DNA from: Saprospira sp. CCB-QB6
GTDB taxonomy: Bacteria; Bacteroidota; Bacteroidia; Chitinophagales; Saprospiraceae
Assembly (NCBI RefSeq): GCF_028464065.1
Contig: NZ_CP116808.1
Coordinates: 943,886-1,007,885 of the forward strand
Length of the DNA stretch: 64,000 bases
Direction of reading: 5' to 3'
The translations under genes and the position numbers were made by a program. Positions 21,542-35,840 of the stretch are shown here, one piece after another; position 1 is the stretch's first letter, and every line of letters begins with the position of its first letter. The notes beneath the pieces were generated by a model. The model was not told where the DNA came from, searched no databases, and saw nothing but the letters and a program-made list of their open reading frames with translations.

Positions 21542-21570
21542 AGTTCCCCCTTCACATAAAAATTAGCACT

Positions 21571-22872
21571 ATGAAAAAACGTCTTTGGAAATCCTTTTTA
21601 GTGGCCGCAGCTACTCTTGGCGCTGGCTTTACTCAGGCCCAAACCGCCAACGAAAGCACCCTACTCTTTGATGCCAATTGCATGCAAGAATATGAATATC
21701 AAGCAATTGATAAATATACAGAATCGGCTTTTCATGACTTTATGTTGCAAGTTTCCCCAAAACAGAAGCTTGCGTTTAGAGTGAAAACGACAAATCTCAA
21801 TGCAGAGCTTTTAGAAACACTTCCGCAAAAAGCTTTAGGTTGCACTGATTTAACAACTATCAATGGCCAGTTTATTCAAGAGGTCAATAGCTTGAAAAAA
21901 TCAGTAAATATTGCCGTTTATAATGCGCAAACAAAGCGCTATCATATTCATCAGGTGAGTCAAATTGCTAGCTTCACAGAAAATGATAAGCAATTGAGCT
22001 ACAAAGACCGTCGCCATAGTTTTGTCTATGCGGCCAATCAAATTAACAGTGGAGAAGACCTAGATGCTACGCCTGAAGGGAAAGTTCTCTTTGTCGAAAA
22101 TGATGAATTGAGCTGCCTCAAACAACGACAGTTCCGCTCGTTTGATCGCTTGCAGCCTCGGGTCTCTGAAAATCTCTATTTCTTGGAAGGAATTGGGCTT
22201 TATCTGATCCAACAAGCTAACGGAAGTCTTCAACTAAAGCGAATCAATAAAAAGACCATTCCTGAGCATATTCGAGATATCTGTTACGAAAAGATGAATG
22301 TAGAGAATGGCATCGCTAGCCGTGGCGGTAGCTCGGTCCAAAAAACTGCTGAAGAACAGAAAAAAAGAACAGGCGTTTTATCTGCTGAAGATCAAAAAGC
22401 CCGAAAGGGAGTCATTCATGGCGAGCTAGGTTCTCCTTTTGATGTAGAACCCATTCCAGCTGAGACTAAAAAACAAACAACAGCTACAGAAAAGAAAACA
22501 ACGCCTGTAGTTAGTGATGATCCTAATTATTACATTGTACAGGAGAACGATAATCTTTATAAAATTGCGGCCAAATATAATACGCGTGTAGACGTACTTA
22601 TGGGGCTCAATAATTTAACTTCTACTACAATTGATCGTGGGCGTCGGATTAAGGTGGTAAATGATGGGAGTTATGTAGACCCTAACCCCTATGTCCGTAC
22701 CGATGAGAAATCGGGTAAGAAGTATAAGGTGCATGTGGTCCGTCAAGGAGAAAACCTTTACGATATTGCCAAAAAATACGGCCTAAGCATGACGCAATTG
22801 GTCCAAATTAACAAGCTGCCTACAGAGAAAGCTAGCATTGATCAAGAATTGATTGTGGGCTTAGCCAACTAA
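21571..22872 (+). CDS. LysM-domain protein (two C-terminal LysM peptidoglycan-binding repeats), secreted
   Basis: The signal peptide is MKKRLWKSFLVAAATLGAGFTQAQ. The LysM repeats are YYIVQENDNLYKIAAKY and YKVHVVRQGENLYDIAKKYG. Confidence 0.65.
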   Translation: MKKRLWKSFLVAAATLGAGFTQAQTANESTLLFDANCMQEYEYQAIDKYTESAFHDFMLQVSPKQKLAFRVKTTNLNAELLETLPQKALGCTDLTTINGQFIQEVNSLKKSVNIAVYNAQTKRYHIHQVSQIASFTENDKQLSYKDRRHSFVYAANQINSGEDLDATPEGKVLFVENDELSCLKQRQFRSFDRLQPRVSENLYFLEGIGLYLIQQANGSLQLKRINKKTIPEHIRDICYEKMNVENGIASRGGSSVQKTAEEQKKRTGVLSAEDQKARKGVIHGELGSPFDVEPIPAETKKQTTATEKKTTPVVSDDPNYYIVQENDNLYKIAAKYNTRVDVLMGLNNLTSTTIDRGRRIKVVNDGSYVDPNPYVRTDEKSGKKYKVHVVRQGENLYDIAKKYGLSMTQLVQINKLPTEKASIDQELIVGLAN

Positions 22873-22890
22873 ATCGATCTTGGCCCAAAT

Positions 22891-22928
22891 AAAAAGGGGG
22901 CGCTCGCCAATGGCGAGTGCCCCCTTTT
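22891..22928. terminator. bidirectional rho-independent terminator
   Basis: GGGGGCGCTCGCCA-AT-GGCGAGTGCCCCC is flanked by A and T runs, between convergent genes. Confidence 0.7.
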
Positions 22929-22937
22929 GCTTACTGT

Positions 22938-23744
22938 TTAGGGCTTTTGGGCCGCTAAAGCAAAGACCATAGGGAGTTTATCTTCTAAACCTTTAATTTG
23001 GTAGCCTTTGGGATGTGGGACCGTATTATTAAAGCAGTTATAAGGCGAAAACTTATACTCTTTGAGATAACTGAGTTGCCAACCTGCCCCTTCTGTCAGT
23101 GCGGCAGTCATCTCTGAAAGGCTGTGATTCCAGCCATAGGATTTTCCTTGAATATCGGCGCTTCGGTTGGCATAGCTTCCCTCTTCTTCGGTCTCAATAA
23201 CGCCCTGGTCAAAATAACTGTATTGAATATAACTAAAGTTATCGTCAAACATCCAGACCATAGGGTGAAACTCAACCAAAAGGAATTGCCCGCCAGTTTT
23301 AAGCAATGGTCCTATTTCTTGGCCCCATTGCAGTAAGTCGGGCAGCCAATAGACCACTCCATAAGAACAAAAAATGAGATCAAAAGGAGCTTCTTGGGCC
23401 AAAATCTTTTGAGCATCTAAAACATTACCGGCATAGAATCGGGCATTGAGCGCTAATTCTTCTGCTAAGCTTTGCGCTTTGGCAATGGCGGTTTCTGAGA
23501 TGTCTAGGCCCACGACTTCTGCGCCCATGCGGGCCAAAGACAGACTATCTTGCCCAAAATGACATTGCAGATGCAAGACTCTTTTGCCCGATAAATCTGC
23601 CTCCAATAAGGAGAGCTCTATAGACTGCAAGCTCGTTTGCCCTTGCATAAAAGCGGCTTGCTGATAAAATTCGGTTTCGGGATGCAAAGCGGCTCTTTGT
23701 TCCCAAACGGCCTTATTGGCCGCAATTTGTTCTTGGTAATTCAT
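22938..23744 (-). CDS. class I SAM-dependent methyltransferase
   Basis: VLHLQCHFGQDSLSLARMGAEVVGLDIS matches motif I. I set the start at the ATG at 23744, because the upstream part of the track ORF is REP. Confidence 0.7.
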   Translation of the reverse strand: MNYQEQIAANKAVWEQRAALHPETEFYQQAAFMQGQTSLQSIELSLLEADLSGKRVLHLQCHFGQDSLSLARMGAEVVGLDISETAIAKAQSLAEELALNARFYAGNVLDAQKILAQEAPFDLIFCSYGVVYWLPDLLQWGQEIGPLLKTGGQFLLVEFHPMVWMFDDNFSYIQYSYFDQGVIETEEEGSYANRSADIQGKSYGWNHSLSEMTAALTEGAGWQLSYLKEYKFSPYNCFNNTVPHPKGYQIKGLEDKLPMVFALAAQKP

Positions 23745-23767
23745 GCGATGGATTGATTTTTTGGATG

Positions 23768-23912
23768 GGACAGGCCCGAAGGGCCGCAGGCTGAGGGGCT
23801 GGAGCAGGGCCGCCGAAGGCGGCAGACCAAGGCGCTGCAAGCGCCGCAGGGCCGAGCAGACCTGCGAGCTGCGAAATGGCCCGACCCGAGCGAAGCGAGG
23901 GGCAGCCCCAAA
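23768..23912. repeat. REP/MITE-like element (reverse, type 1)
   Basis: It contains GCAGGGCCGAGCAGACCTGCGAGCTGCGAAATGGCCCGACCCGAGCGAAGCGAGGGGCAGCCCCAAA. Confidence 0.75.
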
Positions 23913-23914
23913 TT

Positions 23915-25147
23915 CTATTTCTTCTCTGGCATTTCTTCCATAAATTCCACCTTCTTTTCATGAGTGATATTCATGGTCGGGGTCCCTTTGTAATCTGTAA
24001 TTTTCCCCTTTACACAAATTTGCTTGCCATAGAGTTCCGTCTCTGGCGAATAAGAAAAATGTTTGATGTCTTTGCCCCAGATCGTTACAGAAAAAATCTG
24101 GTTGGGGAATTTTGTGTCCAGATTGATAAAGACAGAGCCAGATTTCGTCTTTTTGGTCGATACGACCGTGCCGCAGACGCAGGCCTTTTGATTCATAAAA
24201 ACCTGTGCATCGGCTGTGCTGATGCAATCTTTGGGCAATTCTTCATTGCTAAGAGGTGGAACATCGGCCAAGCGGCCTTCCGTCGTTTTTTCCCAGCTAG
24301 AAGGGTCCTCCATGGCTTCTAGGCGTTTTTCTTCCTCTTCGGGCAAATTGCTAAAGAAATCCAAGCCCGTTTGGGCCTCCACCTCATCCACCGAAACCGC
24401 GTAACTGATAGTTGGGTTGTTGCAGCTGCCATTTTTCATGATAAAGGCGATGGCTTTAGGCTGCTCAGCCTCTAGGTCCAAAACGACCTTAAAAAAGGCT
24501 TCGGGAATGCTCACTTTATTGGGGCCTTGCGTAATTTGTGGCAAGCCCTCCTTCAAAATAGGGCCCGTAATGACCAACATCGAGCGTTTGTGAGAAAAGA
24601 CGGTGCCTCGAACCCAACGCTCCAAGTCGGCCCAGCCCTCTCGGTTAAATTCGGGCAATTGGGGACTCATATTAGAGTAATAATAGGACTCACTAATGGC
24701 CGTTTTAGACCAGCGAAAATCGGCAGAGGGGGCCAAATGCCCGCGATCATAACCACTATACCAATAATCGGATTTTACCGCCGTTCCTGTACTGACCAAC
24801 TCATCTTCTCTAAAATCATTGGTTCGGCTAAGATTGCCTTCCATCACCGCAGGCGGGATAATATGGGCCACCCAAGCGGCCTGTTCATGGGCTTCTGAGT
24901 AATTCAAAATCATGGCGGCATGCTCAACCAATTCCCCTTCTACGCCATCTTTTGGCAGCCCCACTTTCTTCAAATCGGCTCGAATCTTCTGCAGGCGCAA
25001 CGCTTCAATTTGCTGAATGAGGGCTGTTTTCTGTTCGTCTAGGCTTTGCTTTTGAGCTTCTAGTTTTTGTAATTCTTGACCAAGGTCTTGGCTCCAAAGG
25101 CAAGCAGGTAGGGCCAAAACGAAGGCCCATAAAATAAATTGGCGCAT
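23915..25147 (-). CDS. secreted DNA/RNA non-specific endonuclease (NucA/Serratia family) with C-terminal OB-fold domain
   Basis: It has a signal peptide and the GYDRGHLAPSADF active-site motif (DRGH), and then N..SPQ...N..W..LE. The C-terminal CVCGTVVSTKK...ITDYKGTP resembles an OB fold. Confidence 0.7.
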   Translation of the reverse strand: MRQFILWAFVLALPACLWSQDLGQELQKLEAQKQSLDEQKTALIQQIEALRLQKIRADLKKVGLPKDGVEGELVEHAAMILNYSEAHEQAAWVAHIIPPAVMEGNLSRTNDFREDELVSTGTAVKSDYWYSGYDRGHLAPSADFRWSKTAISESYYYSNMSPQLPEFNREGWADLERWVRGTVFSHKRSMLVITGPILKEGLPQITQGPNKVSIPEAFFKVVLDLEAEQPKAIAFIMKNGSCNNPTISYAVSVDEVEAQTGLDFFSNLPEEEEKRLEAMEDPSSWEKTTEGRLADVPPLSNEELPKDCISTADAQVFMNQKACVCGTVVSTKKTKSGSVFINLDTKFPNQIFSVTIWGKDIKHFSYSPETELYGKQICVKGKITDYKGTPTMNITHEKKVEFMEEMPEKK

Positions 25148-25251
25148 AAGCGATGATTTGTTTTGCTGAATAAGCTCCTAAGATACTGAATCAGCAAAGG
25201 GATGCCCGCTTTCTGTTCAGATTTAAGGGAAAGTTTATTTTGATTTAGATT

Positions 25252-25500
25252 TTTTGGGGCCCGCGGCCGCCCTTCCTGGGGCGGCCGCCGCTATGCTGCG
25301 GGGCTCGCTATTCGCTCGGCCCTTCGCCAGCAAGCTGGCTCGGTCTGGCCTTTGGCCACCCCTCCGCAGCGCTGGGCCCTCAGCGGCCCTTCAGGCCTTC
25401 GCAGAAAAGCGGTATTCGTCGCTGCGCTCCTCATGCTTTGATATATCCCCGCCCACCCGCCCCTCTACGGGATTCCTTAAGGAATCCCTCAGGGAAGCGG
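25252..25500. repeat. REP/MITE-like element (forward, divergent variant carrying GGGATTCCTTAAGGAATCCC palindrome)
   Basis: It starts TTTTTTGGGGCCCGCGGCC. Its reverse-complement relative is at 48306-48655. Confidence 0.65.
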
Positions 25501-25638
25501 GCGGAACTTTTTAGACTTTAGCCATGAGATAGAAATAAAATTCCCTTTTTTTGCTTAAAAAACTCGCTAATGTCATCAAAAAGCGATAATATGAGCTACA
25601 AATTAAGACCTAGGCCTTAAAAAGCCCATTTTATCCTT

Positions 25639-28600
25639 TTGCCGATGAAGCTAATAGAACAAAAGCGCCTGCATTTTAAGCAGGGGAATTCTGATAAAGT
25701 ATATGAAGTAGACCTTTGCGAATTAGAAGCAGGGGCCTTTCTAGTAAATTTCCGTTATGGAAAAACAGGCGGTCCCCTACGAGAGGGAAGCAAAACGCCT
25801 ACGCCTGTAGATGAAACCAAGGCCCGTAATCTGTACAATAAATTGCTACAGGATAAAATGAAAAAGGGCTATTTAGATGTCTCTGAAAAGAGTCAGGCTA
25901 AGCAAGTTGCAGCTATTGAGCCTCCAGATAAATCTCTAGAAGGAGAAAAAGCACAAGCGGCTTGGATACTATACCATTTGCAGCTCGCTCAACTAGATCC
26001 AGAGGCCCAAAAGGCCCGCAACTGGAAACTCTCTAGAGTTGCTTGGCGAGCGGCCAGCCTTAACATAAAAGCCGCTGGACCATATTGCTGGGCCCTTTTT
26101 GAGCAAAATCATCGAGGTAAATCGGTAAATGATTTAGAACTCTATAGTTTGCTTTGGGCTACAGCTCAACTTGATACAGAAATAGAGGATCTCAGCAACC
26201 TATTAACTTTTTGGAGAAGCAAGAAAAAAGCGCCTACAGCTAAAAAGCTAGCTCCTTTTGTTTATTGGGAATTAGCAAACGCGGCAGGACAGCAGGCTTT
26301 GCTCGAAGAAGAACTGCCCAAACTACCTGAACTTTGGCAAAAGGCTTTGGACCGTAAAGATATGGATGCCTTAGCCTATCAGTTGCGTAAAGCTAAGGGA
26401 GATAAAAGTATGGAGGAGGCTTTTGCCATGCTCTATTTATTGTCTCCAGCCATGCCTTATTGTCGCAAGGCGCTTTTGGAAGTCATTTGCGAAATGGAGT
26501 TTCGTCCCAATAGCTTCCGCCTCCTGCGTCGCCTCTTTAAAATGGCTACTTTCCGCAAAGATGCACAGTTCTGGGGCGCCTTGGCTTATCGCTTTGAAAA
26601 GGCGAGTCCCCAATATAAAATGCCCCGCCGCAGCAATCAATATGTTTGGGTAAGCTATAACCGCATGCGACCAAAAGATGAGTTGAAAAAAGAGGATAGT
26701 CGTTTGGCCTTCTCCAATTTGACCAAAAAGTATTTTAGTGACTACATGCGTAGAGAGCTAGATCAATTGGGCCAAAAAGGAAACATTGCCTATGTAGCTA
26801 TGGCCACTAGCATCCTTCTTCAATATGATGATCATCGTGATGGGCGCACAGACCGTAGAGAAAAAAGTTGGCGCTTTGACAATAATAAACAACGTTGGAT
26901 TGCAACGGTATACCATTACCCCAGCTATTCTAGAGAATTGATCTTCAACGAAATTCTCTATGCAAACAGTCAGCGATATCTGTACGCTCCAATGAAACAA
27001 GAATGGGTTTATGGAGATAATTATGATCCTGATCAGCCCTTACCCGCAGCACTTTCAGAAACTAAATATGCTGATCTTTGGCAACAAGAACCCAAAGCCT
27101 TTTTGCACCTAATGGCAGAGGCCAAAAGTCAAAAGGTATTGGAGTTTGCCCATACGGCATTTATGGCGCATCCCGAGGCCAAGAGCTTGCAAAATCGCTT
27201 GGGATTAGCTTACTGGAAACAGTTATTGAGCCGTACATATTTGCCTATACAGACCTGGGCCCTACAGAAAATTGTAGCCACTTATGAGCAATCGGGTAAA
27301 CCCACTTCCATTCTGCTTTACCTTTTGGACCATGATTATGCAAAAGCTAGAGAACAGGCTTTGGCTTGGCTCCAAGCCGATTTCTTCGATTATTTTGCCG
27401 ATCTAGACTTGGTCTATAACCTCTTGTTGCATGAACGCCAAGATTTAAGAGCTTGGGCGCAAGAGGCCCTAGGACGTATTGTAGAGGTATATGAACCCGC
27501 TAAACGTCAAGCGCTTTTAGGTCGCTTATTAGGTTTCTTGTTGCGCTCGGGCCAAGATCGCCAGATCTTGATGACAGAGGTGGAAACGCTACTAACAACT
27601 CACTTCAAGGCCGAATTAGAACAACTCAGCTTAGATTTAATCGGGAAGTTTTTACGCTTGCCTTTACCTCAGCAACAAGCTTTCGGTTTGCAGTTGCTTA
27701 AAGGCCATGCCGCAGAAGCAATGCAAATTCCCTTTGAAGATATTCAATACCTTTTTGGTAAAACAGCCGATTATTGGCAATATGGCCTAGAATTACTCCA
27801 AAATTCTTCAGAACAAAAGCTCTTGCAAGAAGGAGAATTTCTCTTGTCTCTGCTAGAACATAAGGAAGAAGATGTTCGCTTAGGCACTCGAGAGATTTTA
27901 GTCCCACTCTATGCCCAAAATCAAGCTTTTGCTGTAGATCAAATGCAACAACTCTTGCGCAGATTGATCCGCAAAGAAAAAATTGAGGGCTTGCATGCAC
28001 TTTTTGCCGATATGCTAACTACCGAGCTAGAAGGATGTTTAGTTGAAGTGGACCGGAAGTTTATTTTCCGCCTACTTAATGCAAAATATGCCCCTGCACA
28101 AGAATTAGCCGCCCTTTTAATTGATCGTTATATCCCTTATGACTCTTTGTCTGTGGCCAATACCGTTCGCTTAGCCAATCACGAAATTGTAGCTGTGCGC
28201 GAACTTGCCTGGAAAATGTTTAAGGAGCAAAAAGATCGTATGCGCTACGAAAGAGAAGAGGCTTTACGTCTACTAGATGTAGATTGGGCCGACTCTCGAC
28301 AGTTTGCCTTTACTTTCTTTGGCGAAGCTTATACCGCAGAAGATTGGAGCCCCAGCTTGATGGTGGGCATTTGCGATTCAGTGCGCGAAGATGTACAGCA
28401 GTTTGGTCGCCAACTCATCACTCGCTTCTTTGAGGAAGAAGATGGTCCCATGTATTTGGAGCAATTGAGTCAGCACCCCCGCCCAGAACTACAACTTTAT
28501 GCAACCAACTATCTGGAGCGTTTCGCTGCGGGACATCCTGAGCGGATTCTATCGCTACGCGATTATTTCTATACGGTTTTGGCCCAAGTAAATAAAGGCC

Positions 28601-28815
28601 GAATTGCCAAAGATCGCATCTGGAGCTTTTTAGCAAAAGAAGCTAAAGCCTCTTTTGAAGTAGCACAATTCCTCTCTGATTTAGCTACTTTTGTCTCGGC
28701 CACAGCAGCTATTGGCGATAAAGAACAGGCCGTTATTGTGCTACGCGATTTGCAGGACCAATACCCCTTGCTCGAACAGCCTATTGCGATTCACGATTAT
28801 CCCACTCAATCTTAG
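25639..28815 (+). CDS. WGR-domain protein with long alpha-helical C-terminal region (MolR/YehI-like, WGR + DUF4132-type architecture)
   Basis: The N-terminus NSDKVYEVDLCELEAGAFLVNFRYGKTGG...DETKARNLYNKLLQDKMKKGY matches the WGR fold, with YGKTG in place of WGRIG. It is followed by about 950 aa of helical repeats. Confidence 0.65.
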   Translation: MPMKLIEQKRLHFKQGNSDKVYEVDLCELEAGAFLVNFRYGKTGGPLREGSKTPTPVDETKARNLYNKLLQDKMKKGYLDVSEKSQAKQVAAIEPPDKSLEGEKAQAAWILYHLQLAQLDPEAQKARNWKLSRVAWRAASLNIKAAGPYCWALFEQNHRGKSVNDLELYSLLWATAQLDTEIEDLSNLLTFWRSKKKAPTAKKLAPFVYWELANAAGQQALLEEELPKLPELWQKALDRKDMDALAYQLRKAKGDKSMEEAFAMLYLLSPAMPYCRKALLEVICEMEFRPNSFRLLRRLFKMATFRKDAQFWGALAYRFEKASPQYKMPRRSNQYVWVSYNRMRPKDELKKEDSRLAFSNLTKKYFSDYMRRELDQLGQKGNIAYVAMATSILLQYDDHRDGRTDRREKSWRFDNNKQRWIATVYHYPSYSRELIFNEILYANSQRYLYAPMKQEWVYGDNYDPDQPLPAALSETKYADLWQQEPKAFLHLMAEAKSQKVLEFAHTAFMAHPEAKSLQNRLGLAYWKQLLSRTYLPIQTWALQKIVATYEQSGKPTSILLYLLDHDYAKAREQALAWLQADFFDYFADLDLVYNLLLHERQDLRAWAQEALGRIVEVYEPAKRQALLGRLLGFLLRSGQDRQILMTEVETLLTTHFKAELEQLSLDLIGKFLRLPLPQQQAFGLQLLKGHAAEAMQIPFEDIQYLFGKTADYWQYGLELLQNSSEQKLLQEGEFLLSLLEHKEEDVRLGTREILVPLYAQNQAFAVDQMQQLLRRLIRKEKIEGLHALFADMLTTELEGCLVEVDRKFIFRLLNAKYAPAQELAALLIDRYIPYDSLSVANTVRLANHEIVAVRELAWKMFKEQKDRMRYEREEALRLLDVDWADSRQFAFTFFGEAYTAEDWSPSLMVGICDSVREDVQQFGRQLITRFFEEEDGPMYLEQLSQHPRPELQLYATNYLERFAAGHPERILSLRDYFYTVLAQVNKGRIAKDRIWSFLAKEAKASFEVAQFLSDLATFVSATAAIGDKEQAVIVLRDLQDQYPLLEQPIAIHDYPTQS

Positions 28816-28826
28816 TCTAGCTCAAT

Positions 28827-30494
28827 ATGTTATTTAATTATAAGTATGGAGGAACTTCCTCCGTGAAAAATAAAGCTGGGCAAACGGCGATGTCTTTTGC
28901 CCCTGATAGTTTGCGCGAGCCTACTTTTTTTGTGGGCCAATTGCACAAGAAAATTGCCTTTAGAGAAGCTATCTCTGCCTTGAATGCTGTAGTAGTTTCT
29001 GATCTTCGCTTCAAACCTCGCGATAAATCCGCCTATTTGGCCTGGGCCAAAGAACAAGAAGAGGTTTGGCTAGCCCAATACCTCGGCGAAATTGCTGGAG
29101 ATGAAGCCAATATCAAAAAACGAATCGAAGATATTTCTGTGGAATTAGCAGGGGTAGAAGAGCAGGAACGAGGCGTAATGCAGCATTTCTACAAAAAACA
29201 AAGAGAGTATTTTAATTACCTCTATAAAAAGGATTTTGATGCTTGGATCGTCCTGGATCCCGTTATCACTACCCATCCCGATAGCATTTTCTTTGAGTGC
29301 TTTAGCCAAGATGAATCTACTTATGGTAAGCTCAGCTGTGGCTACAATGTCTTTAAGAATATTGACGAGTTTTCTTGCGGAACAACCAATATTGACTACT
29401 CCGCAGCCCTCTATAATGAGTTTCAAAAGATTCGAAACTATAAGGAAACCGATTTTCGAGTAGATCCTTCTGGCTTCGAAATCCAAACAGAAGACCAAGA
29501 TTTATATAAAGAGGTCAAAATTGACCTGCCCGAAAGCTGGGTCCGCGGCTTCCTTCAAGTGAGCTCCGCCATGACGATGCCCCTCATTCGCTTTGACCTG
29601 CATCCCATGGATATTCATAGCATCTGCCAGCTTTTGCGCCGCTTCAAAGAAACACATGGCCCCCGCTCTTTGCGCTTTCAACTTCGCCCTGGGCAGCCCG
29701 TTAAGGTGGTGGTAGAACCTTGGAATAAAGAAATTATCTGCCGCCGCTCTATTTATCATGGGCCAAAAGCAGAGGAGGTCCGCATTTGGGGCCGCCGCCG
29801 CTTACTCATTTTAGAGCGCCTGATTCCACAAGCCAAAAAATTTACAGTCAGCTTCCTCGGTTCTGGTTTGCCTTCTTTCTATGAGGCCCAACTAGAGGGA
29901 GATATGGTCTTTACTTTGGGCCTTTCTGGCTGGACCGATAACGATTGGTCCAGAGCTGGTAACTTTGATCTGCTCGCCCCTCGCTTAGAGGTAGACGATT
30001 GGACCAAACAAACCGTTTTCGAGGCACTCAAAACCACTTATTTCGAGTCGGTAGATAGCCTCGCAGAACGCCTGGAATTAGGCACAGATATCGTCAGCGC
30101 AGCCTTGCAAGCCTATACGCAAGCAGGCCGAGTGATCTTTGATCCTACCCTGGGCGTTTACCGCCTCAGAGAATTGCATCGCGAACCTCTCGATATGAAA
30201 CTGCTCCGCTTTGCTTCACCGCAAGAGGAAAAAGCCAACAAAATTTTGGACAAAAACCGCCTCAGCAATTTATCCGCAGAGGCACAGCAAAATGGCCAAA
30301 CTCGACTGTCCGCACAAATTAAAGGAGAGCAACGCAACTACCAATGCCAACTCCTTATCGATGCCGATGACCGCATGGTCCAAGCCGAATGCAATTGCAA
30401 TCATTTTCAAATGAATAAATTGCGCAAAGGCCCCTGCGAACACATCTTAGCCACTCGTATGGCCCATAATCGCAAAACAGGAAAACTGATCTAG
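28827..30494 (+). CDS. SWIM zinc-finger protein (YehQ-like)
   Basis: The C-terminus is CNCNHFQMNKLRKGPCEHIL, which is CxCx(n)CxH (SWIM) at nt 30390-30443. It starts 12 nt after the WGR gene, so the two form an operon. Confidence 0.7.
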   Translation: MLFNYKYGGTSSVKNKAGQTAMSFAPDSLREPTFFVGQLHKKIAFREAISALNAVVVSDLRFKPRDKSAYLAWAKEQEEVWLAQYLGEIAGDEANIKKRIEDISVELAGVEEQERGVMQHFYKKQREYFNYLYKKDFDAWIVLDPVITTHPDSIFFECFSQDESTYGKLSCGYNVFKNIDEFSCGTTNIDYSAALYNEFQKIRNYKETDFRVDPSGFEIQTEDQDLYKEVKIDLPESWVRGFLQVSSAMTMPLIRFDLHPMDIHSICQLLRRFKETHGPRSLRFQLRPGQPVKVVVEPWNKEIICRRSIYHGPKAEEVRIWGRRRLLILERLIPQAKKFTVSFLGSGLPSFYEAQLEGDMVFTLGLSGWTDNDWSRAGNFDLLAPRLEVDDWTKQTVFEALKTTYFESVDSLAERLELGTDIVSAALQAYTQAGRVIFDPTLGVYRLRELHREPLDMKLLRFASPQEEKANKILDKNRLSNLSAEAQQNGQTRLSAQIKGEQRNYQCQLLIDADDRMVQAECNCNHFQMNKLRKGPCEHILATRMAHNRKTGKLI

Positions 30495-30497
30495 CGA

Positions 30498-30645
30498 TTT
30501 TTTTGGGGCCTCCGCAGCAAAGCTGCGGCGCTACGTTTCGGGGCTCGCTGCTCGCTCGGCCCTTCGGCGGCTTTGCCGCCTCGGTCTGGCCTGCGGCCAC
30601 CCCTCCACATCGCTAGGCCTGCGGCGGCTTCGCCGCCTGTCTACC
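30498..30645. repeat. REP/MITE-like element (forward, type 2) separating SWIM gene from RT module
   Basis: It starts TTTTTTGGGGCCTCCGCAGCAAAGCTGCGGCGCTACG and ends CCACATCGCTAGGCCTGCGG. Confidence 0.75.
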
Positions 30646-30704
30646 GCAAAAAGGGCCAAAGCTTCACTATTTTGATAATTTTTTGAAAAAATTTAAATAA
30701 AAAC

Positions 30705-30733
30705 TTGACAAGCTGCTAAAGAATATCTATAAT
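30705..30733 (+). promoter_or_regulatory. perfect sigma70-like promoter (TTGACA-17bp-TATAAT)
   Basis: TTGACA at 30705-30710 and TATAAT at 30728-30733 are exactly 17 bp apart, upstream of the structured region and the RT gene. Confidence 0.5.
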
Positions 30734-30739
30734 TGTAAC

Positions 30740-31110
30740 AGACAAATGGGGATGGCAAGCATCTCTATATAGATATTGAAAAGAAGGATCAAGAGAAGAC
30801 AAAGTCTTGCAAAAAGAGCGCTGTTTCGGCGTTCAAGCGATATTACTCTTCACTGCTCACTAAGGAAGAATCTTTATGATGCGAACCGTCGTAGGTGCCC
30901 CTACTATGCGCCCTATTCGGTTTCGAGTCGTAGACTCTATAGGGCGCATAGTAGGGGCACCTACGACGGTTCGCTGGAGTTGATTCTCTTAGTTCTATGA
31001 TTGTACGAAGTAAATCTTCTCTCCTTCTTTTTTCTTTTGCAGCTACTTTCAATTTTGGACCAACTGGGCTTCTGCCTTAGTTCTCCCAAATTGAAAGTAG
31101 TTTTTTTTTG
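30740..31110 (+). ncRNA. candidate retron-type non-coding RNA (msr/msd-like) upstream of RT
   Basis: A perfect 36-bp inverted repeat (30881-30916 / 30939-30974) carries an inner 5-bp palindrome in its 22-nt loop. A second 13-bp perfect stem (31043-31055 / 31088-31100) is followed by T9, immediately 5' of the RT start. No credible ORF is present. Confidence 0.45.
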
Positions 31111-31126
31111 TCTCAATCTGCTCCCT

Positions 31127-32698
31127 ATGTCTGATCATCGAATGACCCGTCAACAGATTTATGACCGTATCCGTCAAACGTCTAAAGAGGAATACATTTT
31201 AGAAGAAATGAAACGCCTTGGCTTTTGGGATACTTCCGAAGAAGCTCCAAAAATATCTGAGGAGCTGATCCAAAAGAAAGGAGCCCTCCGCAGAGAGCTC
31301 CGCGAGCTGATGGAGAAGCAACGCATGTTTCGAGATAAAGAACGCATGCTAGCCGAAATGCGCAAAAAACGCATGGCCGATGCTCTCGCCCGTAGAGAAG
31401 AGACCAAGGAACGCCGTAAGGCGGAAAAAGAAGCCCGTGCTAAAGCTTGGCAAGAAAAGAAAGAACGAAGCATTGTCTTTTTAGGTAAGGATTATTCTGC
31501 TGGCTTGAGTGAAGAAGAAGCTGACCTAGAAAAATTAGCCGCTTTAAATCTCCCTGCATTTAAGGATATTAAGGAGCTGGCAGATGCTATGGAGATTTCT
31601 GTAGGGCGTTTGCGCTACCTTTGCTTTCAACGAAAGCTGTCTACAGTATCGCATTATGAACGCTTTTATTTAGCCAAGAAAACAGGGGGCAAACGTCTGA
31701 TTTCAGCCCCTCGTCCAATGCTTAAAACTGCACAATATTGGCTACTAGAAAATGTACTTTCTCGCTTGGAGATGCATGAAGCCGCCCATGGTTTTGTGCC
31801 GCAGCGCTCTATTGTGAGTAATGCTAAATTGCATGAGAAAAAAGAGGTCGTCATCAATATGGACCTCAAAGACTTTTTTCCTACCGTAACCTACCCTCGA
31901 GTGAAGGGGATGTTTAAGGGCTTGGGCTATTCTGAGCAACAGGCAATTATTTTTGCGCTATTGACCACAGAACCTGAGGTGGACCAAGTAGAAATAGATG
32001 GGCAATTGTATTATGCCCAAAAAGGAGAACGCTATTTACCACAGGGCGCCCCCACTAGTCCCGCAATCACGAACTGGCTTTGCCGCCGCATGGACCGCCG
32101 TTTTGAAGGTGTAGCGAAAAAACTAGGTTGGACCTATAGCCGCTATGCCGATGACCTAAGCTTCTCTGCTCAGGATACGAGCAATATTAGCCGCATTATT
32201 TGGCAGGCACAGCAGATTATCCAAGATGAAGGCTTTGTGATTCACCCCAAAAAGCTCAAAATTATGCGCAAAGGCCGCCGCCAAGAGGTAACTGGCCTTA
32301 CCGTAAATGAGCAAGTAGCCGTAGATCGCAAAAGCTTGAAGAAGTTTAGAGCCTGTTTGCATACCATAGACACTAAAGGCTATCAAGCAGCGGAATGGGG
32401 CCAAGGCTTTATTTTGGCCAGCATTAAGGGCTTTGCGAATTATGTTCGTATGGTCCAAGCCGATAAAGGCCAAGCCCTTTGCGAACAAGTAAATCGCATT
32501 TTGGCCAAAGAAGAAAATAAGCAAGCTTGGAAGGCCTATTTTGCTCAGTCTAGCACTAAGAAATATGCTTATAAAGAGCAAAAGCAACAAGTTACAGCAG
32601 AAGATACAGCTACTTTGGGTAGTTCTGGCTTAGCAGAATCTCTTCATCCCATCGACCCACAACAAAAGGATGAGGAGCAATGGTGGAGCCTTTGGTAG
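31127..32698 (+). CDS. retron-type reverse transcriptase with basic coiled-coil N-terminal extension
   Basis: It has RLISAP (motif 1), HGFVPQRSIVSNAKLH (the retron NAxxH, nt 31820-31834), INMDLKDFFPTV, SRYADDLSFS (YADD, nt 32144-32155) and RRQEVTGLTVN (retron VTG, nt 32288-32296). The N-terminal roughly 120 aa are K/R/E-rich. Confidence 0.8.
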   Translation: MSDHRMTRQQIYDRIRQTSKEEYILEEMKRLGFWDTSEEAPKISEELIQKKGALRRELRELMEKQRMFRDKERMLAEMRKKRMADALARREETKERRKAEKEARAKAWQEKKERSIVFLGKDYSAGLSEEEADLEKLAALNLPAFKDIKELADAMEISVGRLRYLCFQRKLSTVSHYERFYLAKKTGGKRLISAPRPMLKTAQYWLLENVLSRLEMHEAAHGFVPQRSIVSNAKLHEKKEVVINMDLKDFFPTVTYPRVKGMFKGLGYSEQQAIIFALLTTEPEVDQVEIDGQLYYAQKGERYLPQGAPTSPAITNWLCRRMDRRFEGVAKKLGWTYSRYADDLSFSAQDTSNISRIIWQAQQIIQDEGFVIHPKKLKIMRKGRRQEVTGLTVNEQVAVDRKSLKKFRACLHTIDTKGYQAAEWGQGFILASIKGFANYVRMVQADKGQALCEQVNRILAKEENKQAWKAYFAQSSTKKYAYKEQKQQVTAEDTATLGSSGLAESLHPIDPQQKDEEQWWSLW

Positions 32699-32711
32699 AC
32701 TATCTAATCAG

Positions 32712-32745
32712 AAAAGCCCCCGCAGTCATTGCGGGGGCTTTTTAT
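32712..32745 (+). terminator. rho-independent terminator after RT gene
   Basis: GCCCCCGCA-GTCAT-TGCGGGGGC is followed by TTTTT. Confidence 0.75.
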
Positions 32746-32756
32746 TGGACCAAAAG

Positions 32757-32900
32757 CAGCCTGGCCTAGCGATGTGGAGGGGTGGCCGAAGGCCAGACCA
32801 AGGCGGCAAAGGCCGCCGCAGGGCCGAGCGAGCAGCGAGCCCCGCAACGTAGCGGCGGCCAACTGAGGCCAAAGGCCGAACTGGCCGCAGGCCCCAAAAT
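32757..32900. repeat. REP/MITE-like element (reverse)
   Basis: It has GGCCTAGCGATGTGGAGGGG and ends GCAGGCCCCAAAA. Confidence 0.75.
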
Positions 32901-35840
32901 CTAGCTAAAGTGATTTTGTTTTTTGCGCCAATAAAAACCCAAAGCCAACAGCAAGAGAAGAAGGGTTCCTATACCCCAGATATAGATAGACCAGTTTGTT
33001 TTTTGGGGTAAATCAACAGCTTGGCTGTCTCCGCTGAGGACCCAGGCGGCCCAGAAAAAGGGTTGGGCAGCTACTTCCTTTTGATCAACTAATTCTAAGT
33101 AGCGGACTTGAGCATTTTGTAGGGCCTTATCTTTAGTTTGGCCCGCCTCTAAATTAGAATAAAAGAGCTCCATCAATAAGCGACTACTTTCATCATTGAC
33201 CTCCCAAAGCGTGCTGAGCGTGCTGGCGGCACCAGCATAACGGAAACCAAGGCCAAGACTTTGCGCCCCTTCTCCAGCTTGGTAACGGCCAGCAGCGGTT
33301 TGGCAGGCAGAAAGCACCACTAAATCAGCAGATAAATTTAGACCAGGGAGTTCATAAGCCAATAATAAATCATCGAGTAGACTATCTTGGGTTTCGCTAA
33401 AGAAGAGAGCCGAATAGCTAGGGGCCATAGGGTCTGTGATGGCGTGCATGGCCAAGTGAATAAAGCGGGCATGGGGAGCTAATTCTCTAAACTGCTGTTC
33501 GTTGGCAGCCCCACTGCGCAGAAACTGTCCCTTAAAGTATTTTTCCAGATAATTGAGTTCGGCCTCAGCTCCAGCCAAGGGCTGAAGTTGTTTGCGAGCT
33601 TGGGTCCAATCTAAGGCTTGACGATCCACTGCAGTTCCATGGCCTTCATAAGTTGGCGCCATAGCTAAAAAACCTTGAGCTTGTCGTTTTGGGCTATTTT
33701 GCAGATAGAAATTGGCGGCATAGAGGTAACTTATTGCGTACTGCTTGATGAGGTAATTTAGGCGGCTAAAAGCTTCTTCTTCAGGACTTATAAGCAGGCT
33801 ACTAAAAGCCAGCTGGGCCAATTCTGCATGAGGAGAAATGAGTAAATCATGCTTAGGCGCTTGGGGCATAAGTTGCTGATAAAGAGCATGAGCAGCTTGG
33901 ATAAAGTCCATTTTGAACTGTTTACTTTCTTCTTTTGGCCGTTGCAGGAGTCGCTGAAATTTTTGCAGTTTTTTACGTAGTGGTTGAGTGGTTCCTAGGC
34001 TAAATAATTGAATTTCGCCTGCTTCTAAAAGAAAGCAATAGCTATTTTTTGGGCCCATAAAATAAGCCAATAGACTTTGTTGATTTTGAGCTAATTTCTC
34101 CTGCAAAGCGGCTAAATCCAATTCCTCTAATTCTTCTTGCCAGCTACTATAACTGGGATATTTCTGAGCCAATTGAGCGAGCAAATCTTCCAAGGCTTGG
34201 CGTTTTTGGAAAAGAATTGCTTGCATTTTTTGTGCTCGCAAGCTATCTGATTTGCGTTCTGCACGGCTAAATTGCGCTTGATAATAGCTAATATCTTGGC
34301 GCAGGCTACGCTCTTCGGCCAAAAGCTCCGCCGAGATATTGCCTAATTGCTGGGCCTCTTTATTGCGCAAAGAACTGAGCAACCAACTGCCCTTAGCCAG
34401 CTCAATTTCGATAAAAGCTTGCTGAATATAAATGGGGTCGGCCTCCGCTTTTTCCAGAGCAATTGCGGTTTCTAGAAAAGACTCATAAATTTTTTCAGTT
34501 TGTTCTCTTAAAGCTGCTTTCCCCCCTTTAGAGCCCAATTGCTTTTCTAATTCCTTGGCCAAGCTAATTGCCGTTTGGCAACTTTTATATTGCTCTAGCA
34601 AAGGGGCATTGATTTGTTTTTGCGCTCGATAAATTCCCCATAAAATAGCCAAACCTTCTTGGCCTTTCAGCTGGCTAAGTCCTTCTTGTTGCCCCAAGCC
34701 CGCCGTTTGGTAGCGAAGAGCCTCATCAAAATAACGAAGCGCCAAGGCTGCCGTATCTAATGCCAAGGCGGCCTCTCCCAAAGCAATATAAATTTCTTGA
34801 TTTTTGGCGAGCTCTCGAAAGGCAGATTTTCGTCTTCGAGCATCTGCTAAAGAAGCCGCTAAGTCTTGAATACCCTCAAGATCCTTATTCTTTTTTAGCT
34901 TGTGGATATAGGCTTTAAACAAAGGAAATTGAGCGTGTCCGCCTCGATTTATTTCCTCTGTTAAAGGTAATTTAAAAGCATTTTGATCCAACAAGGATAA
35001 ATAGGCATTGGTCTCTAAAGCATAAAAACTTTTGGTCATCCCTAAGTCCTCAAATTGCTTTGCAGCCTCTAGCAAGTAAGGTAAGGCCTGTTTTTCTTGC
35101 CCCAATTTATAATAACAAATACCTCTACTCGCCAAGTTTTTTGCTCGAACATGAGGAAAAACTTTCTCCCCTTCCAAGGCGGCCAAAGCCTCTAAAGTAC
35201 GCTCATAATTTCCCTTCTGGCGATAGATTTGTGCCATGAGCAAATAGGCCATTGTTTTCGCATGAGGCTGTTGGAGTAAAGCCAATTTTTTGGCCCACTT
35301 TAAAGCTGTTTCTGGTTCATTGGCTAAGCCAAAATGAAAACTAGCCCCCTCTCTATATAAATCTAGCTTCAACAACTCATGATAGTTCTCCTCATTCTTT
35401 TCTAACCAAAGTAAAGCTTTGTCTAAGCGCTCCTTTTGTGCTGGCAGTTCAAGGTTTTCTAAATACCCTAAGTAATGATAGGCTAAATAATAATAAGGCA
35501 AGCGCTCTGCTGCTTGTTCTTCGGCCCAACTAAGTTGATCCTGAACCAAGGCTGTTAATTCTTCTACATAAGGCCTTTTATAAGCGCCCAAATAAGCATA
35601 AGCTAAGCCCACTAGCGCCAAATCACCCGCCTCTTGGTACTTACTCAATCGCCAAGATGAATCTACAGCTTGATTATAAGTAAAACTAGCTTCATAGTAG
35701 CGCATCATGAGCTGCTTTTGCACTCCTATCTTGGTAGTTTGAGCCAAACTGTCTTGATAAATGGCCCAATTAAGAGCTGATTGGGCAAAGAGGGGCAGGC
35801 AAAAGAATAACCCGCAAAGGCTATAGATATAGTTTCGCAT
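32901..35840 (-). CDS. TPR-repeat CHAT-domain protein (caspase-like protease), signal peptide and C-terminal TM anchor
   Basis: The C-terminal CHAT motifs are HLAMHAI (His) and VVLSACQTAAG (Cys). The N-terminal half has TPR repeats. The signal peptide is MRNYIYSLCGLFFCLPLFAQ. The C-terminal TM is IYIWGIGTLLLLLLALGFYW. Confidence 0.75.
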   Translation of the reverse strand: MRNYIYSLCGLFFCLPLFAQSALNWAIYQDSLAQTTKIGVQKQLMMRYYEASFTYNQAVDSSWRLSKYQEAGDLALVGLAYAYLGAYKRPYVEELTALVQDQLSWAEEQAAERLPYYYLAYHYLGYLENLELPAQKERLDKALLWLEKNEENYHELLKLDLYREGASFHFGLANEPETALKWAKKLALLQQPHAKTMAYLLMAQIYRQKGNYERTLEALAALEGEKVFPHVRAKNLASRGICYYKLGQEKQALPYLLEAAKQFEDLGMTKSFYALETNAYLSLLDQNAFKLPLTEEINRGGHAQFPLFKAYIHKLKKNKDLEGIQDLAASLADARRRKSAFRELAKNQEIYIALGEAALALDTAALALRYFDEALRYQTAGLGQQEGLSQLKGQEGLAILWGIYRAQKQINAPLLEQYKSCQTAISLAKELEKQLGSKGGKAALREQTEKIYESFLETAIALEKAEADPIYIQQAFIEIELAKGSWLLSSLRNKEAQQLGNISAELLAEERSLRQDISYYQAQFSRAERKSDSLRAQKMQAILFQKRQALEDLLAQLAQKYPSYSSWQEELEELDLAALQEKLAQNQQSLLAYFMGPKNSYCFLLEAGEIQLFSLGTTQPLRKKLQKFQRLLQRPKEESKQFKMDFIQAAHALYQQLMPQAPKHDLLISPHAELAQLAFSSLLISPEEEAFSRLNYLIKQYAISYLYAANFYLQNSPKRQAQGFLAMAPTYEGHGTAVDRQALDWTQARKQLQPLAGAEAELNYLEKYFKGQFLRSGAANEQQFRELAPHARFIHLAMHAITDPMAPSYSALFFSETQDSLLDDLLLAYELPGLNLSADLVVLSACQTAAGRYQAGEGAQSLGLGFRYAGAASTLSTLWEVNDESSRLLMELFYSNLEAGQTKDKALQNAQVRYLELVDQKEVAAQPFFWAAWVLSGDSQAVDLPQKTNWSIYIWGIGTLLLLLLALGFYWRKKQNHFS

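What the first reader, a model, noticed from the sequence alone, without database searches (positions are those of the whole stretch)
25639..30494. WGR-domain giant protein + SWIM zinc-finger protein operon (MolR/YehI-YehQ-like pair) lacking the MoxR-ATPase/VWA partners
The first protein has an N-terminal WGR domain (NSDKVYEVDL…FRYGKTGG…KGY) fused to about 950 aa of helical repeats. A SWIM zinc-finger (CxCx18CxH) protein follows after a 12-nt gap.

In E. coli the homologous yeh cluster also encodes a MoxR AAA+ ATPase and a VWA protein. Here those are absent, and the pair instead neighbours a secreted nuclease and an RT module.

The function of this family is unknown. Both domains are nucleic-acid binders that are frequently found in defence islands.
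Basis: partly seen in the sequence, partly recalled or inferred. Interest (0 to 1): 0.55.

Follow-up and report, generated by a model that had tools for sequence, protein, structure and literature searches.

The report
Type XIII retron with clamp-like effector
The WGR and SWIM genes are not an orphan Yeh-like pair but the two accessory genes of a known kind of bacterial retron (type XIII), which also has its own non-coding RNA and reverse transcriptase; modelling predicts that the SWIM protein contains a PCNA-like DNA-clamp fold.

Summary
Both ORFs exist at the stated coordinates, and the WGR and SWIM domains are confirmed. Two details are corrected: the zinc motif is CxCx12CxH, not x18, and the gap between the genes is 11 nt.

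The interpretation as a "Yeh-like pair lacking MoxR/VWA" is wrong. PADLOC profiles match both proteins end to end (WGR_XIII 1019 bits, SWIM_XIII 770 bits). The next gene downstream is an RT_XIII reverse transcriptase (626 bits).

Between the SWIM gene and the RT gene lies a retron msr-msd non-coding RNA. It has its own perfect promoter, a1/a2 inverted repeats, a conserved G and a 36-bp perfect hairpin. Across 49 loci from several phyla its structure covaries strongly.

Of 55 related loci with enough flanking sequence, 45 carry the RT. None carries a MoxR or VWA gene. YehI and YehQ show no homology beyond the zinc finger.

This is therefore a Saprospira member of the type XIII retrons (the Mx162/Ne144 class, Mestre 2020). 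I found no published experimental evidence of their function.

The parts
25645..28815 (+). Gene for the WGR + HEAT/ARM-repeat protein (1056 aa). This is the retron type XIII accessory protein, cluster 216_1 of Mestre 2020. The ORF opens at TTG 25639; the likely start is ATG 25645.
   Evidence: PADLOC WGR_XIII PDLC02973, 1019 bits, residues 1-1054 over profile positions 1-972 of 973. 223 homologues, most about 1050 aa. Homologues start MKLI.Q.
25669..25887 (+). WGR domain (residues 9-81).
   Evidence: Pfam PF05406, E 2.2e-5, above the gathering score. Invariant residues S16 K18 Y20 D23 N35 G39 G75 Y76 in the family alignment.
28827..30494 (+). Gene for the SWIM protein (555 aa). This is the retron type XIII 'primary' accessory protein, cluster 114_1.
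   Evidence: PADLOC SWIM_XIII PDLC02972, 770 bits, full length. More than 6700 homologues, 53-75% identical across phyla.
28914..29936 (+). Predicted PCNA-like two-domain clamp protomer (about residues 30-370), with a long helical-hairpin insertion (about 68-140). It contains the conserved acidic 'DEDE' residues D144, D152, E157, D190 and E229. Boundaries are approximate.
29997..30167 (+). Winged-helix domain (about residues 391-447).
30390..30443 (+). SWIM zinc-finger motif C522-x-C524-x12-C537-x-H539.
   Evidence: Read directly from the translation. All four residues are invariant in 100 sequences. Pfam SWIM at 505-542.
30497..30660 (+). Copy of a dispersed GC-rich intergenic repeat, inserted between the SWIM gene and the ncRNA. 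Not part of the retron proper.
   Evidence: At least 7 copies in the window. It accounts for the long 632-nt SWIM-RT spacer, compared with about 280-500 nt in most other loci.
30705..30733 (+). Promoter-like site TTGACA-17 nt-TATAAT upstream of the ncRNA.
   Evidence: The only 12-of-12 match in 25100-33000. Conserved in S. grandis DSM 2844.
30777..31038 (+). Retron non-coding RNA (msr-msd).
- a1: 30777-30800.
- Conserved CTTGCA, with candidate branching G at 30809.
- msr hairpin: 30816-30834.
- Outer msd stem: 30859-30872 pairing with 30982-30993.
- 36-bp perfect msd hairpin: 30881-30916 with 30939-30974.
- Conserved GAGTTGA: 30978-30984.
- Conserved ACGAAG: 31005-31010.
- a2: 31016-31038.
   Evidence: RNA fold -140.9 kcal/mol, z -10.3. 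Inverted repeat I1 is 100% complementary. The same motif set lies downstream of the SWIM gene (usually within about 150 nt) in 51 of 80 loci. In the 49-sequence alignment, 36 of 42 pairs show compensatory changes; 89.9% of cells are paired against 32-43% when partners are slid; 0 of 500 shuffles reach the observed score. Cognate a1/a2 duplexes average -27.6 kcal/mol against -12.7 for non-cognate pairs.
31043..31110 (+). A+T-rich hairpin (31043-31059 with 31084-31100) followed by a T-run, between the ncRNA and the RT start. It looks like a terminator or attenuator.
   Evidence: Inverted repeat I6, 17 nt, 94% complementary. Both arms and the T-run are conserved in L002. Function is inferred.
31127..32698 (+). 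Retron reverse transcriptase (523 aa), with an N-terminal extension of about 180 aa. The RVT_1 domain lies at 31676-32305.
   Evidence: PADLOC RT_XIII PDLC02956, 625.6 bits; the next best profile scores 311. Pfam RVT_1, E 5e-24. The best solved relative is the retron Ec86 RT, E 5e-39. NAKLH, VTG and YADD motifs are visible in the translation.
32716..32743 (+). Intrinsic-terminator-like hairpin GCCCCCGC-7 nt-GCGGGGGC followed by TTTTT, just after the RT stop codon.
   Evidence: Read directly from the sequence.

Best explanation
SHOWN BY COMPUTATION. The region 25645-32743 is one complete type XIII retron in a Saprospira chromosome. It has two transcription units.
1. An operon encoding the WGR + HEAT/ARM scaffold protein and the SWIM protein.
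2. A unit with its own promoter encoding the msr-msd non-coding RNA and the retron reverse transcriptase.

INFERRED FROM ESTABLISHED RETRON BIOCHEMISTRY.
- The RNA folds so that a1 pairs with a2.
- The RT primes from the 2'-OH of the conserved G (30809) that sits at the end of that stem.
- It copies the msd region leftwards from about 31007. This gives a multicopy single-stranded DNA of roughly 150 nt whose core is a hairpin with a stem of about 36-50 bp.

INFERRED FROM THE PREDICTED FOLD AND FROM DOMAIN FUSIONS.
- The SWIM protein is a PCNA/9-1-1-like clamp protomer fused to a winged helix and a SWIM finger. It binds the duplex stem of the msDNA, perhaps as a ring.
- The WGR domain of the partner binds a DNA end or the branch. 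Its HEAT solenoid bridges to the RT.
- By analogy with characterised retrons, this msDNA-loaded complex is a surveillance device. Disturbance of the msDNA, for example by phage DNA-modifying or DNA-degrading proteins, would release an activity of the accessory pair on DNA.

My confidence in the identity is about 0.95. My confidence in the clamp-on-msDNA mechanism is about 0.3.
For: Identity:
- Full-length, top-scoring PADLOC matches of all three proteins to the type XIII profiles.
- Mestre 2020 defines type XIII by exactly this set: a clade-10 RT, a SWIM CxCx12CxH protein with a winged helix and a DEDE motif, and a WGR-like HEAT/ARM protein.
- The gene order WGR-SWIM-RT on one strand is found in 44 of 55 informative loci from Bacteroidota, Cyanobacteria, Planctomycetota, Acidobacteriota and Verrucomicrobiota. 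It is also found in Nannocystis, the genus of retron Ne144, and in Clostridium butyricum.

ncRNA:
- Stable fold.
- Conserved sequence blocks with strong covariation.
- Cognate-specific a1/a2 pairing.
- The predicted msDNA folds at -56.7 kcal/mol, z -13.9.

Clamp:
- The second AlphaFold model is confident (pLDDT 86).
- Invariant or near-invariant basic residues (R46, R203, R323, R325, R331) lie on four predicted helices: 42-57, 193-200, 260-272 and 324-335. I assign these helices by topology to the inner face of the clamp. That assignment is my inference.
- Family variants carry BRCT or extra WGR domains, both of which bind DNA ends or DNA-damage sites.
Against: - No msDNA has been observed. 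The branching G and the end points of the msDNA are predictions.
- The clamp fold rests on a predicted model. Ring formation, DNA binding and any partner contacts are untested.
- Sequence identity to PCNA is only 7-13%, and there is no Pfam PCNA match.
- Neither accessory protein has a recognisable toxic or enzymatic domain, so the output of the system is unknown.
- The invariant acidic cluster (D144, D152, E157, D162, E163) is not explained by a pure clamp role.
- Several features are atypical of abortive-infection defence genes. The SWIM protein is conserved at 53-75% identity across phyla. It is absent from phages and nearly absent from plasmids. The family tracks host phylogeny.
- 10 of 55 loci have the WGR and SWIM genes (9 of them also the ncRNA motif) but no RT within 4.5-6 kb.
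Confidence: 0.8

Rival explanations
1. One reading: an orphan MolR/YehI-YehQ-like WGR + SWIM pair that has lost its MoxR ATPase and VWA partners and only happens to lie next to an RT.
For: WGR and SWIM domains occur in both systems.
Against: - No significant similarity to YehI or YehQ by sequence or by profile.
- No DUF4132.
- The SWIM finger is at the opposite end of the protein.
- No MoxR, VWA or YehM homologue in 1.24 Mb of related loci.
- The RT and the ncRNA are conserved partners.
Confidence: 0.03
2. A type XIII retron working as a classical abortive-infection system, in which the SWIM protein is a transposase-derived DEDE (DDE-like) nuclease held in check by the msDNA. This is the proposal of Mestre 2020.
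For: - The acidic motif D144-x7-D152-x4-E157-x32-D190-x38-E229 is present and (nearly) invariant.
- Eukaryotic Mutator-type transposases also end in a SWIM finger (my own knowledge).
- Other retron types use nuclease effectors.
Against: - The region carrying the motif is confidently predicted as a PCNA-type clamp domain.
- No Pfam transposase match even at E 10.
- The system is chromosomal and vertically inherited.
Confidence: 0.15
3. A domesticated retron with a housekeeping or developmental role in DNA metabolism (repair, replication restart, recombination) rather than phage defence. The msDNA would serve as a cofactor or substrate for a clamp-like protein.
For: - Unusually high conservation of the SWIM protein across phyla.
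- The locus is collinear between Saprospira strains at 89% nucleotide identity.
- Mestre 2020 reports a correlation of 0.78 with host 16S and suggests domestication.
- Absent from phages and from mobilisable plasmids.
- PCNA-like fold, with BRCT and WGR fusions.
- The window neighbours are ordinary genes, not a defence island.
Against: - All retrons whose function has been established are anti-phage systems.
- The system is patchy, not universal, within the phyla where it occurs.
- PADLOC and DefenseFinder list it as defence by classification only.
Confidence: 0.2

Closest known systems
Type XIII retrons (Mestre et al. 2020, NAR 48:12632). Examples: Retron-Mxa1 (Mx162), Retron-Mxa2 (Mx65), Retron-Sau1 (Sa163), Retron-Nex2 (Ne144).
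   Same: - RT of the same clade.
- SWIM protein with CxCx12CxH, a winged helix and the acidic motif.
- A WGR-like HEAT/ARM protein encoded upstream of it.
- A dedicated ncRNA class with a long msd hairpin.
- Chromosomal, largely vertical inheritance.
   Different: - The host is a Saprospira (Bacteroidota).
- A dispersed repeat element is inserted between the SWIM gene and the ncRNA.
- The ncRNA-RT unit has its own consensus promoter.
Nothing here departs from the definition of the type.
E. coli yeh cluster: yehF/yehH (WGR), yehI (DUF4132), yehL (MoxR AAA+), yehM (DUF5682), yehP (VWA), yehQ (SWIM).
   Same: Both include a WGR-domain protein and a SWIM-finger protein. Neither has an experimentally defined function, as far as I know.
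   Different: - No detectable homology outside the two small domains.
- DUF4132, MoxR, VWA and DUF5682 are absent here and in all related loci.
- The SWIM finger is N-terminal in YehQ and C-terminal here.
- The yeh cluster has no RT and no ncRNA.
PCNA and 9-1-1 (Rad9-Hus1-Rad1) sliding clamps.
   Different: - 7-13% sequence identity.
- A helical insertion of about 75 residues.
- C-terminal winged-helix and SWIM domains.
- An invariant acidic cluster.
- Encoded in a retron.
Ring assembly, loading and DNA encirclement are not shown.
Characterised retrons with solved complexes: Ec86/Eco1 (type II-A), Ec78 (I-A), Eco2, Eco8.
   Same: The RT is homologous (Ec86 RT, E 5e-39). The overall logic is the same: RT plus msDNA plus accessory effector.
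   Different: The accessory proteins are unrelated to any solved effector; there is no PDB sequence match for the SWIM protein. The RT has an N-terminal extension of about 180 aa.

Membership tests
Type XIII retron | Reverse transcriptase of the type XIII (clade 10) lineage. | tested here: met
   RT_XIII PDLC02956, 625.6 bits over residues 43-534 of the ORF, against 311 bits for the next profile. RVT_1, E 5e-24.
Type XIII retron | Retron-RT sequence hallmarks (NAxxH, VTG, YADD). | tested here: met
   NAKLH, QEVTGL and RYADDL are read in the translation. The motif definitions come from my own knowledge of retron RTs.
Type XIII retron | An msr-msd ncRNA next to the RT, flanked by a1/a2 inverted repeats, with a conserved G after a1. 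| tested here: met
   36 of 42 pairs covary. Cognate a1/a2 duplexes average -27.6 kcal/mol against -12.7 for non-cognate pairs. G30809 lies in a column that is at least 90% conserved, next to an invariant T.
Type XIII retron | [quoted passage not shown] | tested here: met
   SWIM_XIII, 770 bits, full length. The zinc motif and acidic residues are invariant. DprA_WH match is weak.
Type XIII retron | Preceding gene for a WGR-like + HEAT/ARM protein (cluster 216_1). | tested here: met
   WGR_XIII, 1019 bits, full length. Pfam WGR.
Type XIII retron | Conserved co-location of the three genes. | tested here: met
   71 of 80 loci have the SWIM gene downstream. 45 of 55 informative loci have the RT. 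Also seen in Nannocystis and Clostridium loci.
Type XIII retron | Production of branched msDNA. | not testable with these tools
   Needs nucleic-acid extraction or sequencing. The predicted product is about 150 nt.
Type XIII retron | Anti-phage activity (assumed for retrons in general). | not testable with these tools
   No experimental paper on type XIII function was found in the held library.
Yeh-type MoxR-VWA system (E. coli yehF-yehQ) | MoxR AAA+ ATPase and VWA protein in the cluster. | tested here: not met
   tblastn with YehL, YehP and YehM finds nothing at E 1e-3 or better in the window plus 80 loci.
Yeh-type MoxR-VWA system (E. coli yehF-yehQ) | Large protein with DUF4132, homologous to YehI/MolR. 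| tested here: not met
   No DUF4132 match, whereas YehI matches at E 2e-47. BLASTP E 0.24. hhalign probability 1.1%.
Yeh-type MoxR-VWA system (E. coli yehF-yehQ) | SWIM protein homologous to YehQ. | tested here: not met
   BLASTP E 0.15. hhalign aligns only 27 zinc-finger columns, probability 1%. The SWIM finger is at 56-88 in YehQ and at 505-542 here.
PCNA / 9-1-1 sliding clamps (fold level only) | Two-domain protomer of the DNA-clamp fold. | tested here: met
   [not shown]
PCNA / 9-1-1 sliding clamps (fold level only) | Detectable sequence homology to PCNA families. | tested here: not met
   7-13% identity in the structural alignments. No Pfam PCNA match at E 10 or better in 30 family members.
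PCNA / 9-1-1 sliding clamps (fold level only) | Closed ring around duplex DNA, loaded by a clamp loader. | not testable with these tools
   No multimer or nucleic-acid modelling tool is available.
DDE / Mutator-like transposase-derived nuclease (Mestre 2020 suggestion) | RNase H-like catalytic fold carrying the acidic residues. | tested here: not met
   [not shown]

The most novel reading that the evidence does not exclude
The accessory SWIM protein of type XIII retrons, the class that includes Mx162, is a genuine PCNA/9-1-1-type sliding clamp of bacterial origin.
- It assembles on the long duplex hairpin of the msDNA, or is transferred from the msDNA to cellular or phage DNA.
- The WGR-HEAT partner acts as its end-sensing loader or scaffold.
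- The system is a vertically inherited DNA-surveillance or DNA-metabolism module, not a mobile toxin-type abortive-infection system.

This would give a concrete, testable function to this retron class. I found no experimentally established function for it.
Probability: 0.3. Interest if true: 0.75.

Novelty: new member of a known kind. Interest (0 to 1): 0.4.

Why it matters
As a locus it is ordinary. It is one more type XIII retron, already covered by the PADLOC profiles and by the 2020 classification, so the finding as first framed (an orphan Yeh-like pair) should be marked down.

It still matters for two reasons.

1. I found no experimental function or mechanism for type XIII retrons in the searched literature. 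This is the class that contains the classical myxobacterial retrons.
2. The fold prediction made here replaces the earlier "transposase-like DEDE nuclease" idea with a specific, testable alternative. The SWIM protein appears to be a PCNA-like clamp protomer followed by a winged helix and the SWIM finger, and its partner carries the DNA-end-binding WGR domain.

Together with the well-defined ncRNA (promoter, a1/a2, candidate branching G, hairpin), the locus offers a compact system of about 7 kb for testing what this retron class does.

Tried and rejected
- Rfam at permissive E-values on 25000-33000 gave only spurious microRNA-precursor matches to the long hairpin, all below gathering scores. 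No retron family in Rfam covers this ncRNA.
- NCBIfam gave nothing useful.
- Pfam at E up to 10 on 30 family members found nothing for the N-terminal 380 residues of the SWIM protein.
- A PDB sequence search found no solved relative of the SWIM protein. For the WGR-HEAT protein it found only designed HEAT-type repeat proteins.
- The first AlphaFold run used 30 close homologues and was poor (pLDDT 62.7; below 50 across residues 128-241). Its PCNA matches had rmsd of about 11 A and were not trusted. I therefore collected divergent relatives and re-modelled.
- The hypothesis of homology to YehI/YehQ was tested four ways and rejected.
- Association with MoxR/VWA was rejected.
- The secreted nuclease and the CHAT protein were considered as system components. 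Both were rejected because they do not co-occur in other loci.
- The 86-aa ORF at 25254-25514 is a GC-rich repeat, not a gene.
- Literature searches for experimental work on type XIII retrons, for retron plus PCNA, and for WGR plus SWIM plus RT or MoxR found nothing relevant.

Full report
**1. The observation**

The first opens at a TTG, but its homologues begin MKLI.Q, so ATG 25645 is the probable start, giving 1056 aa.

Pfam confirms a WGR domain at residues 9-81 (E 2.2e-5, above the gathering score). It also confirms a SWIM finger at residues 505-542 of the second protein (E 1e-5).

The remainder of the first protein is a HEAT/ARM-type solenoid.

Three small corrections are needed:
- The zinc motif is CxCx12CxH, not x18.
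- The gap between the genes is 11 nt.
- DUF4132 is not present.

**2. What it is**

PADLOC profiles identify the system outright.
- Protein 1 matches WGR_XIII over its whole length (1019 bits).
- Protein 2 matches SWIM_XIII over its whole length (770 bits).
- The next gene downstream (31127-32698) matches RT_XIII at 626 bits, twice the score of any other retron RT profile.

"XIII" refers to the retron classification of Mestre et al. 2020. That paper defines type XIII by exactly this set:
- a clade-10 RT;
- a protein with a DEDE motif, a winged helix and a C-terminal SWIM finger, stated there as CxCx12CxH;
- usually a preceding WGR-like HEAT/ARM protein.

The type includes the classical myxobacterial retrons Mx162, Mx65, Sa163 and Ne144.

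The window comes from a Saprospira. The WGR protein is 91% identical to that of S. grandis. The region 17960-32756 is collinear with S. grandis DSM 2844 at 85-89% nucleotide identity.

**3. The non-coding RNA**

The 632-nt spacer between the SWIM and RT genes contains these elements, in order:
- A copy of a dispersed GC-rich repeat (30497-30660).
- The only perfect TTGACA-17-TATAAT promoter match in the region (30705-30733).
- A highly structured RNA (-140.9 kcal/mol, z -10.3).

In that RNA, a1 (30777-30800) pairs with a2 (31016-31038). These enclose a small hairpin (30816-30834) and a long hairpin whose core is a 36-bp perfect inverted repeat (30881-30916 with 30939-30974).

The same architecture lies downstream of the SWIM gene (usually within about 150 nt) in 51 of 80 related loci. 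It has the same conserved blocks: CCTTGCA, a TG.(A/T)TC(A/G) hairpin loop, GAGTTGA and ACGAAG.

On a 49-sequence MAFFT alignment, RNAalifold predicts 42 pairs, and 36 of them show compensatory changes.
- 89.9% of cells are paired, against 32-43% when the partners are slid by 1-3 columns.
- The covariation score is 0.656, against 0.09-0.16 for the slid controls.
- No shuffle out of 500 reaches the observed values for that score or for the percentage of paired cells.

The a1/a2 arms differ in sequence between loci but pair specifically with their own partner. The mean duplex energy is -27.6 kcal/mol for cognate pairs and -12.7 for non-cognate pairs.

G30809, within CTTGCA, lies directly at the inner end of the a1/a2 stem, which is the position of the branching G in known retrons. 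It sits in a column that is at least 90% conserved, next to an invariant T.

From retron biochemistry I infer an msDNA of about 150 nt, templated leftwards from about 31007. As DNA it folds at -56.7 kcal/mol (z -13.9).

An A+T-rich hairpin with a T-run (31043-31110) lies between the ncRNA and the RT start. It is conserved in a distant Saprospiraceae locus and may attenuate read-through into the RT gene.

**4. Conservation of the gene set**

A scan of one genome per species returned 80 loci encoding a WGR-HEAT homologue.
- 71 have the SWIM gene downstream.
- 55 have a complete SWIM gene and at least 2.5 kb of downstream sequence. Of these, 44 have the RT downstream on the same strand and one has it upstream.

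The hosts include Bacteroidota, Cyanobacteria, Planctomycetota, Acidobacteriota and Verrucomicrobiota.
- A Nannocystis genome shows the same three genes.
- A Clostridium butyricum megaplasmid also shows the same three genes.

The secreted nuclease and the methyltransferase next to the window's retron recur only in the sister Saprospira genome. The CHAT-domain gene does not recur even there. They are therefore neighbours, not components.

**5. The Yeh comparison**

I fetched the E. coli K-12 yeh cluster.
- YehI carries DUF4132 and no WGR domain. The WGR domain is in YehF.
- YehQ has its SWIM finger at residues 56-88.
- Pairwise BLASTP gives E 0.24 for the large proteins and E 0.15 for the SWIM proteins.
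- Profile comparison gives probabilities of about 1%, aligning only 27 zinc-finger columns.
- tblastn with YehL (MoxR), YehM, YehP (VWA) and YehQ finds nothing in the window or in the 80 loci, 1.24 Mb in total.

The two systems share two small, promiscuous domains and nothing else. The pair is not "lacking" partners. Its partners are the RT and the ncRNA.

**6. How it may work**

The held literature contains no experimental work on type XIII function. No relative of the SWIM protein has a solved structure.

A first AlphaFold model, built from 30 close homologues, was poor. I then took three steps:
1. Searched the 50%-identity representative library, which gave 1485 clusters at E 1e-3 or better.
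2. Used divergent members to retrieve a second clade.
3. Re-modelled with 100 sequences of 33-75% identity. This gave pLDDT 86 and pTM 0.79.

- PCNAs as the nine best hits.
- Then herpesvirus processivity factors.

Foldseek gives PCNA for all top 50 hits, with E down to 7.6e-11 and TM up to 0.77.

Invariant or near-invariant arginines (R46, R203, R323, R325, R331) lie on four predicted helices that, in the clamp topology, would correspond to the DNA-facing inner helices. This is an inference.

Some family members have a C-terminal BRCT domain or an extra WGR domain. Both domain types are known from proteins that recognise DNA ends or DNA damage.

My working model is as follows. It is inferred, and I put its probability at about 0.3.
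- The SWIM protein binds, perhaps encircles, the duplex stem of the msDNA.
- The WGR domain of the partner holds a DNA end or the branch.
- The HEAT solenoid links them to the RT.
- Disturbance of the msDNA changes what the pair does to DNA.

**7. Features that do not fit a typical mobile defence gene**

- The SWIM protein is 53-75% identical across phyla. The RT is 44-62% identical and the WGR-HEAT protein 28-45%.
- The family is absent from 50,697 phage records. It occurs in only 11 of 72,556 plasmid records, all non-mobilisable replicons of at least 200 kb.
- Mestre et al. report a correlation with host 16S and raise the possibility of domestication.
- Ten of the 55 informative loci keep the WGR and SWIM genes (nine of them also the ncRNA motif) but have no RT within 4.5-6 kb.

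A non-defence role in DNA metabolism is therefore a live rival.

**8. Verdict**

The locus is a new member of a known kind, a complete type XIII retron. Interest as a locus is modest.

The one added insight is the PCNA-like fold of the SWIM protein. I did not find it in the searched literature, but it rests on a predicted model. It could make the function of this retron class directly testable.

Noticed in passing
window ~10970-11150, 25250-25420, 30497-30660, 32745-32890(-), 36950-37130, 41230-41400(-), 46600-46780: A dispersed GC-rich intergenic repeat of about 150-170 nt. It starts TTTTTGGGGCC and has the core GCTCGCTnnTCGCTCGGCCCTGCG...GGTCTG. There are at least 7 copies in 64 kb, against 0 expected by chance. 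Three copies bracket the retron's transcription units. Synteny with S. grandis DSM 2844 ends exactly at the 32745-32890 copy. The 86-aa ORF at 25254-25514 is this repeat, not a gene.
   Followed up: partly
window 32901-35840 (-): A 979-aa protein with a C-terminal CHAT (caspase-like protease) domain (E 3.6e-48), a long helical N-terminal half and a C-terminal hydrophobic tail. It is absent from the otherwise collinear S. grandis DSM 2844 locus, so it lies in a strain-variable segment next to the retron.
   Followed up: partly
window 30705-30733: A perfect sigma-70 consensus promoter (TTGACA, 17 nt, TATAAT) upstream of the retron ncRNA, in a Bacteroidota genome. To my knowledge, promoters in this phylum usually follow a different consensus. 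It is conserved as TTGACA...TATCAT in S. grandis DSM 2844.
   Followed up: no
L034 12924-19144; also L010, L016, L018, L021, L030, L033, L038, L039, L080: Ten related loci keep the WGR-HEAT and SWIM genes (nine of them also the conserved ncRNA motif) but have no retron RT within 4.5-6 kb. In Xanthocytophaga flavus, housekeeping genes follow on the other strand. In several cyanobacteria the RT lies 1.6-5 kb away from the ncRNA.
   Followed up: partly
proteins P0391, P0291, P0285 (relatives of window 28827-30494): Some members of the SWIM-protein family carry a C-terminal BRCT domain. One carries a WGR domain inserted just before the SWIM finger. Both domain types are associated with DNA ends or DNA damage.
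   Followed up: partly
[not shown]
   Followed up: no
window 31043-31110: An A+T-rich 17-bp hairpin followed by a run of nine T lies between the end of the ncRNA (a2) and the RT start codon. It is conserved in a distant Saprospiraceae locus (L002). It may be an attenuator that sets the ratio of ncRNA to RT mRNA.
   Followed up: no
plasmid and phage collections; L083 (C. butyricum pCBU1): The SWIM protein has no match in 50,697 phage records. It matches only 11 of 72,556 plasmid records, all non-mobilisable replicons of at least 200 kb. The Clostridium version has the RT gene overlapping the SWIM gene by 4 nt, which leaves no room for an ncRNA between them.
   Followed up: partly
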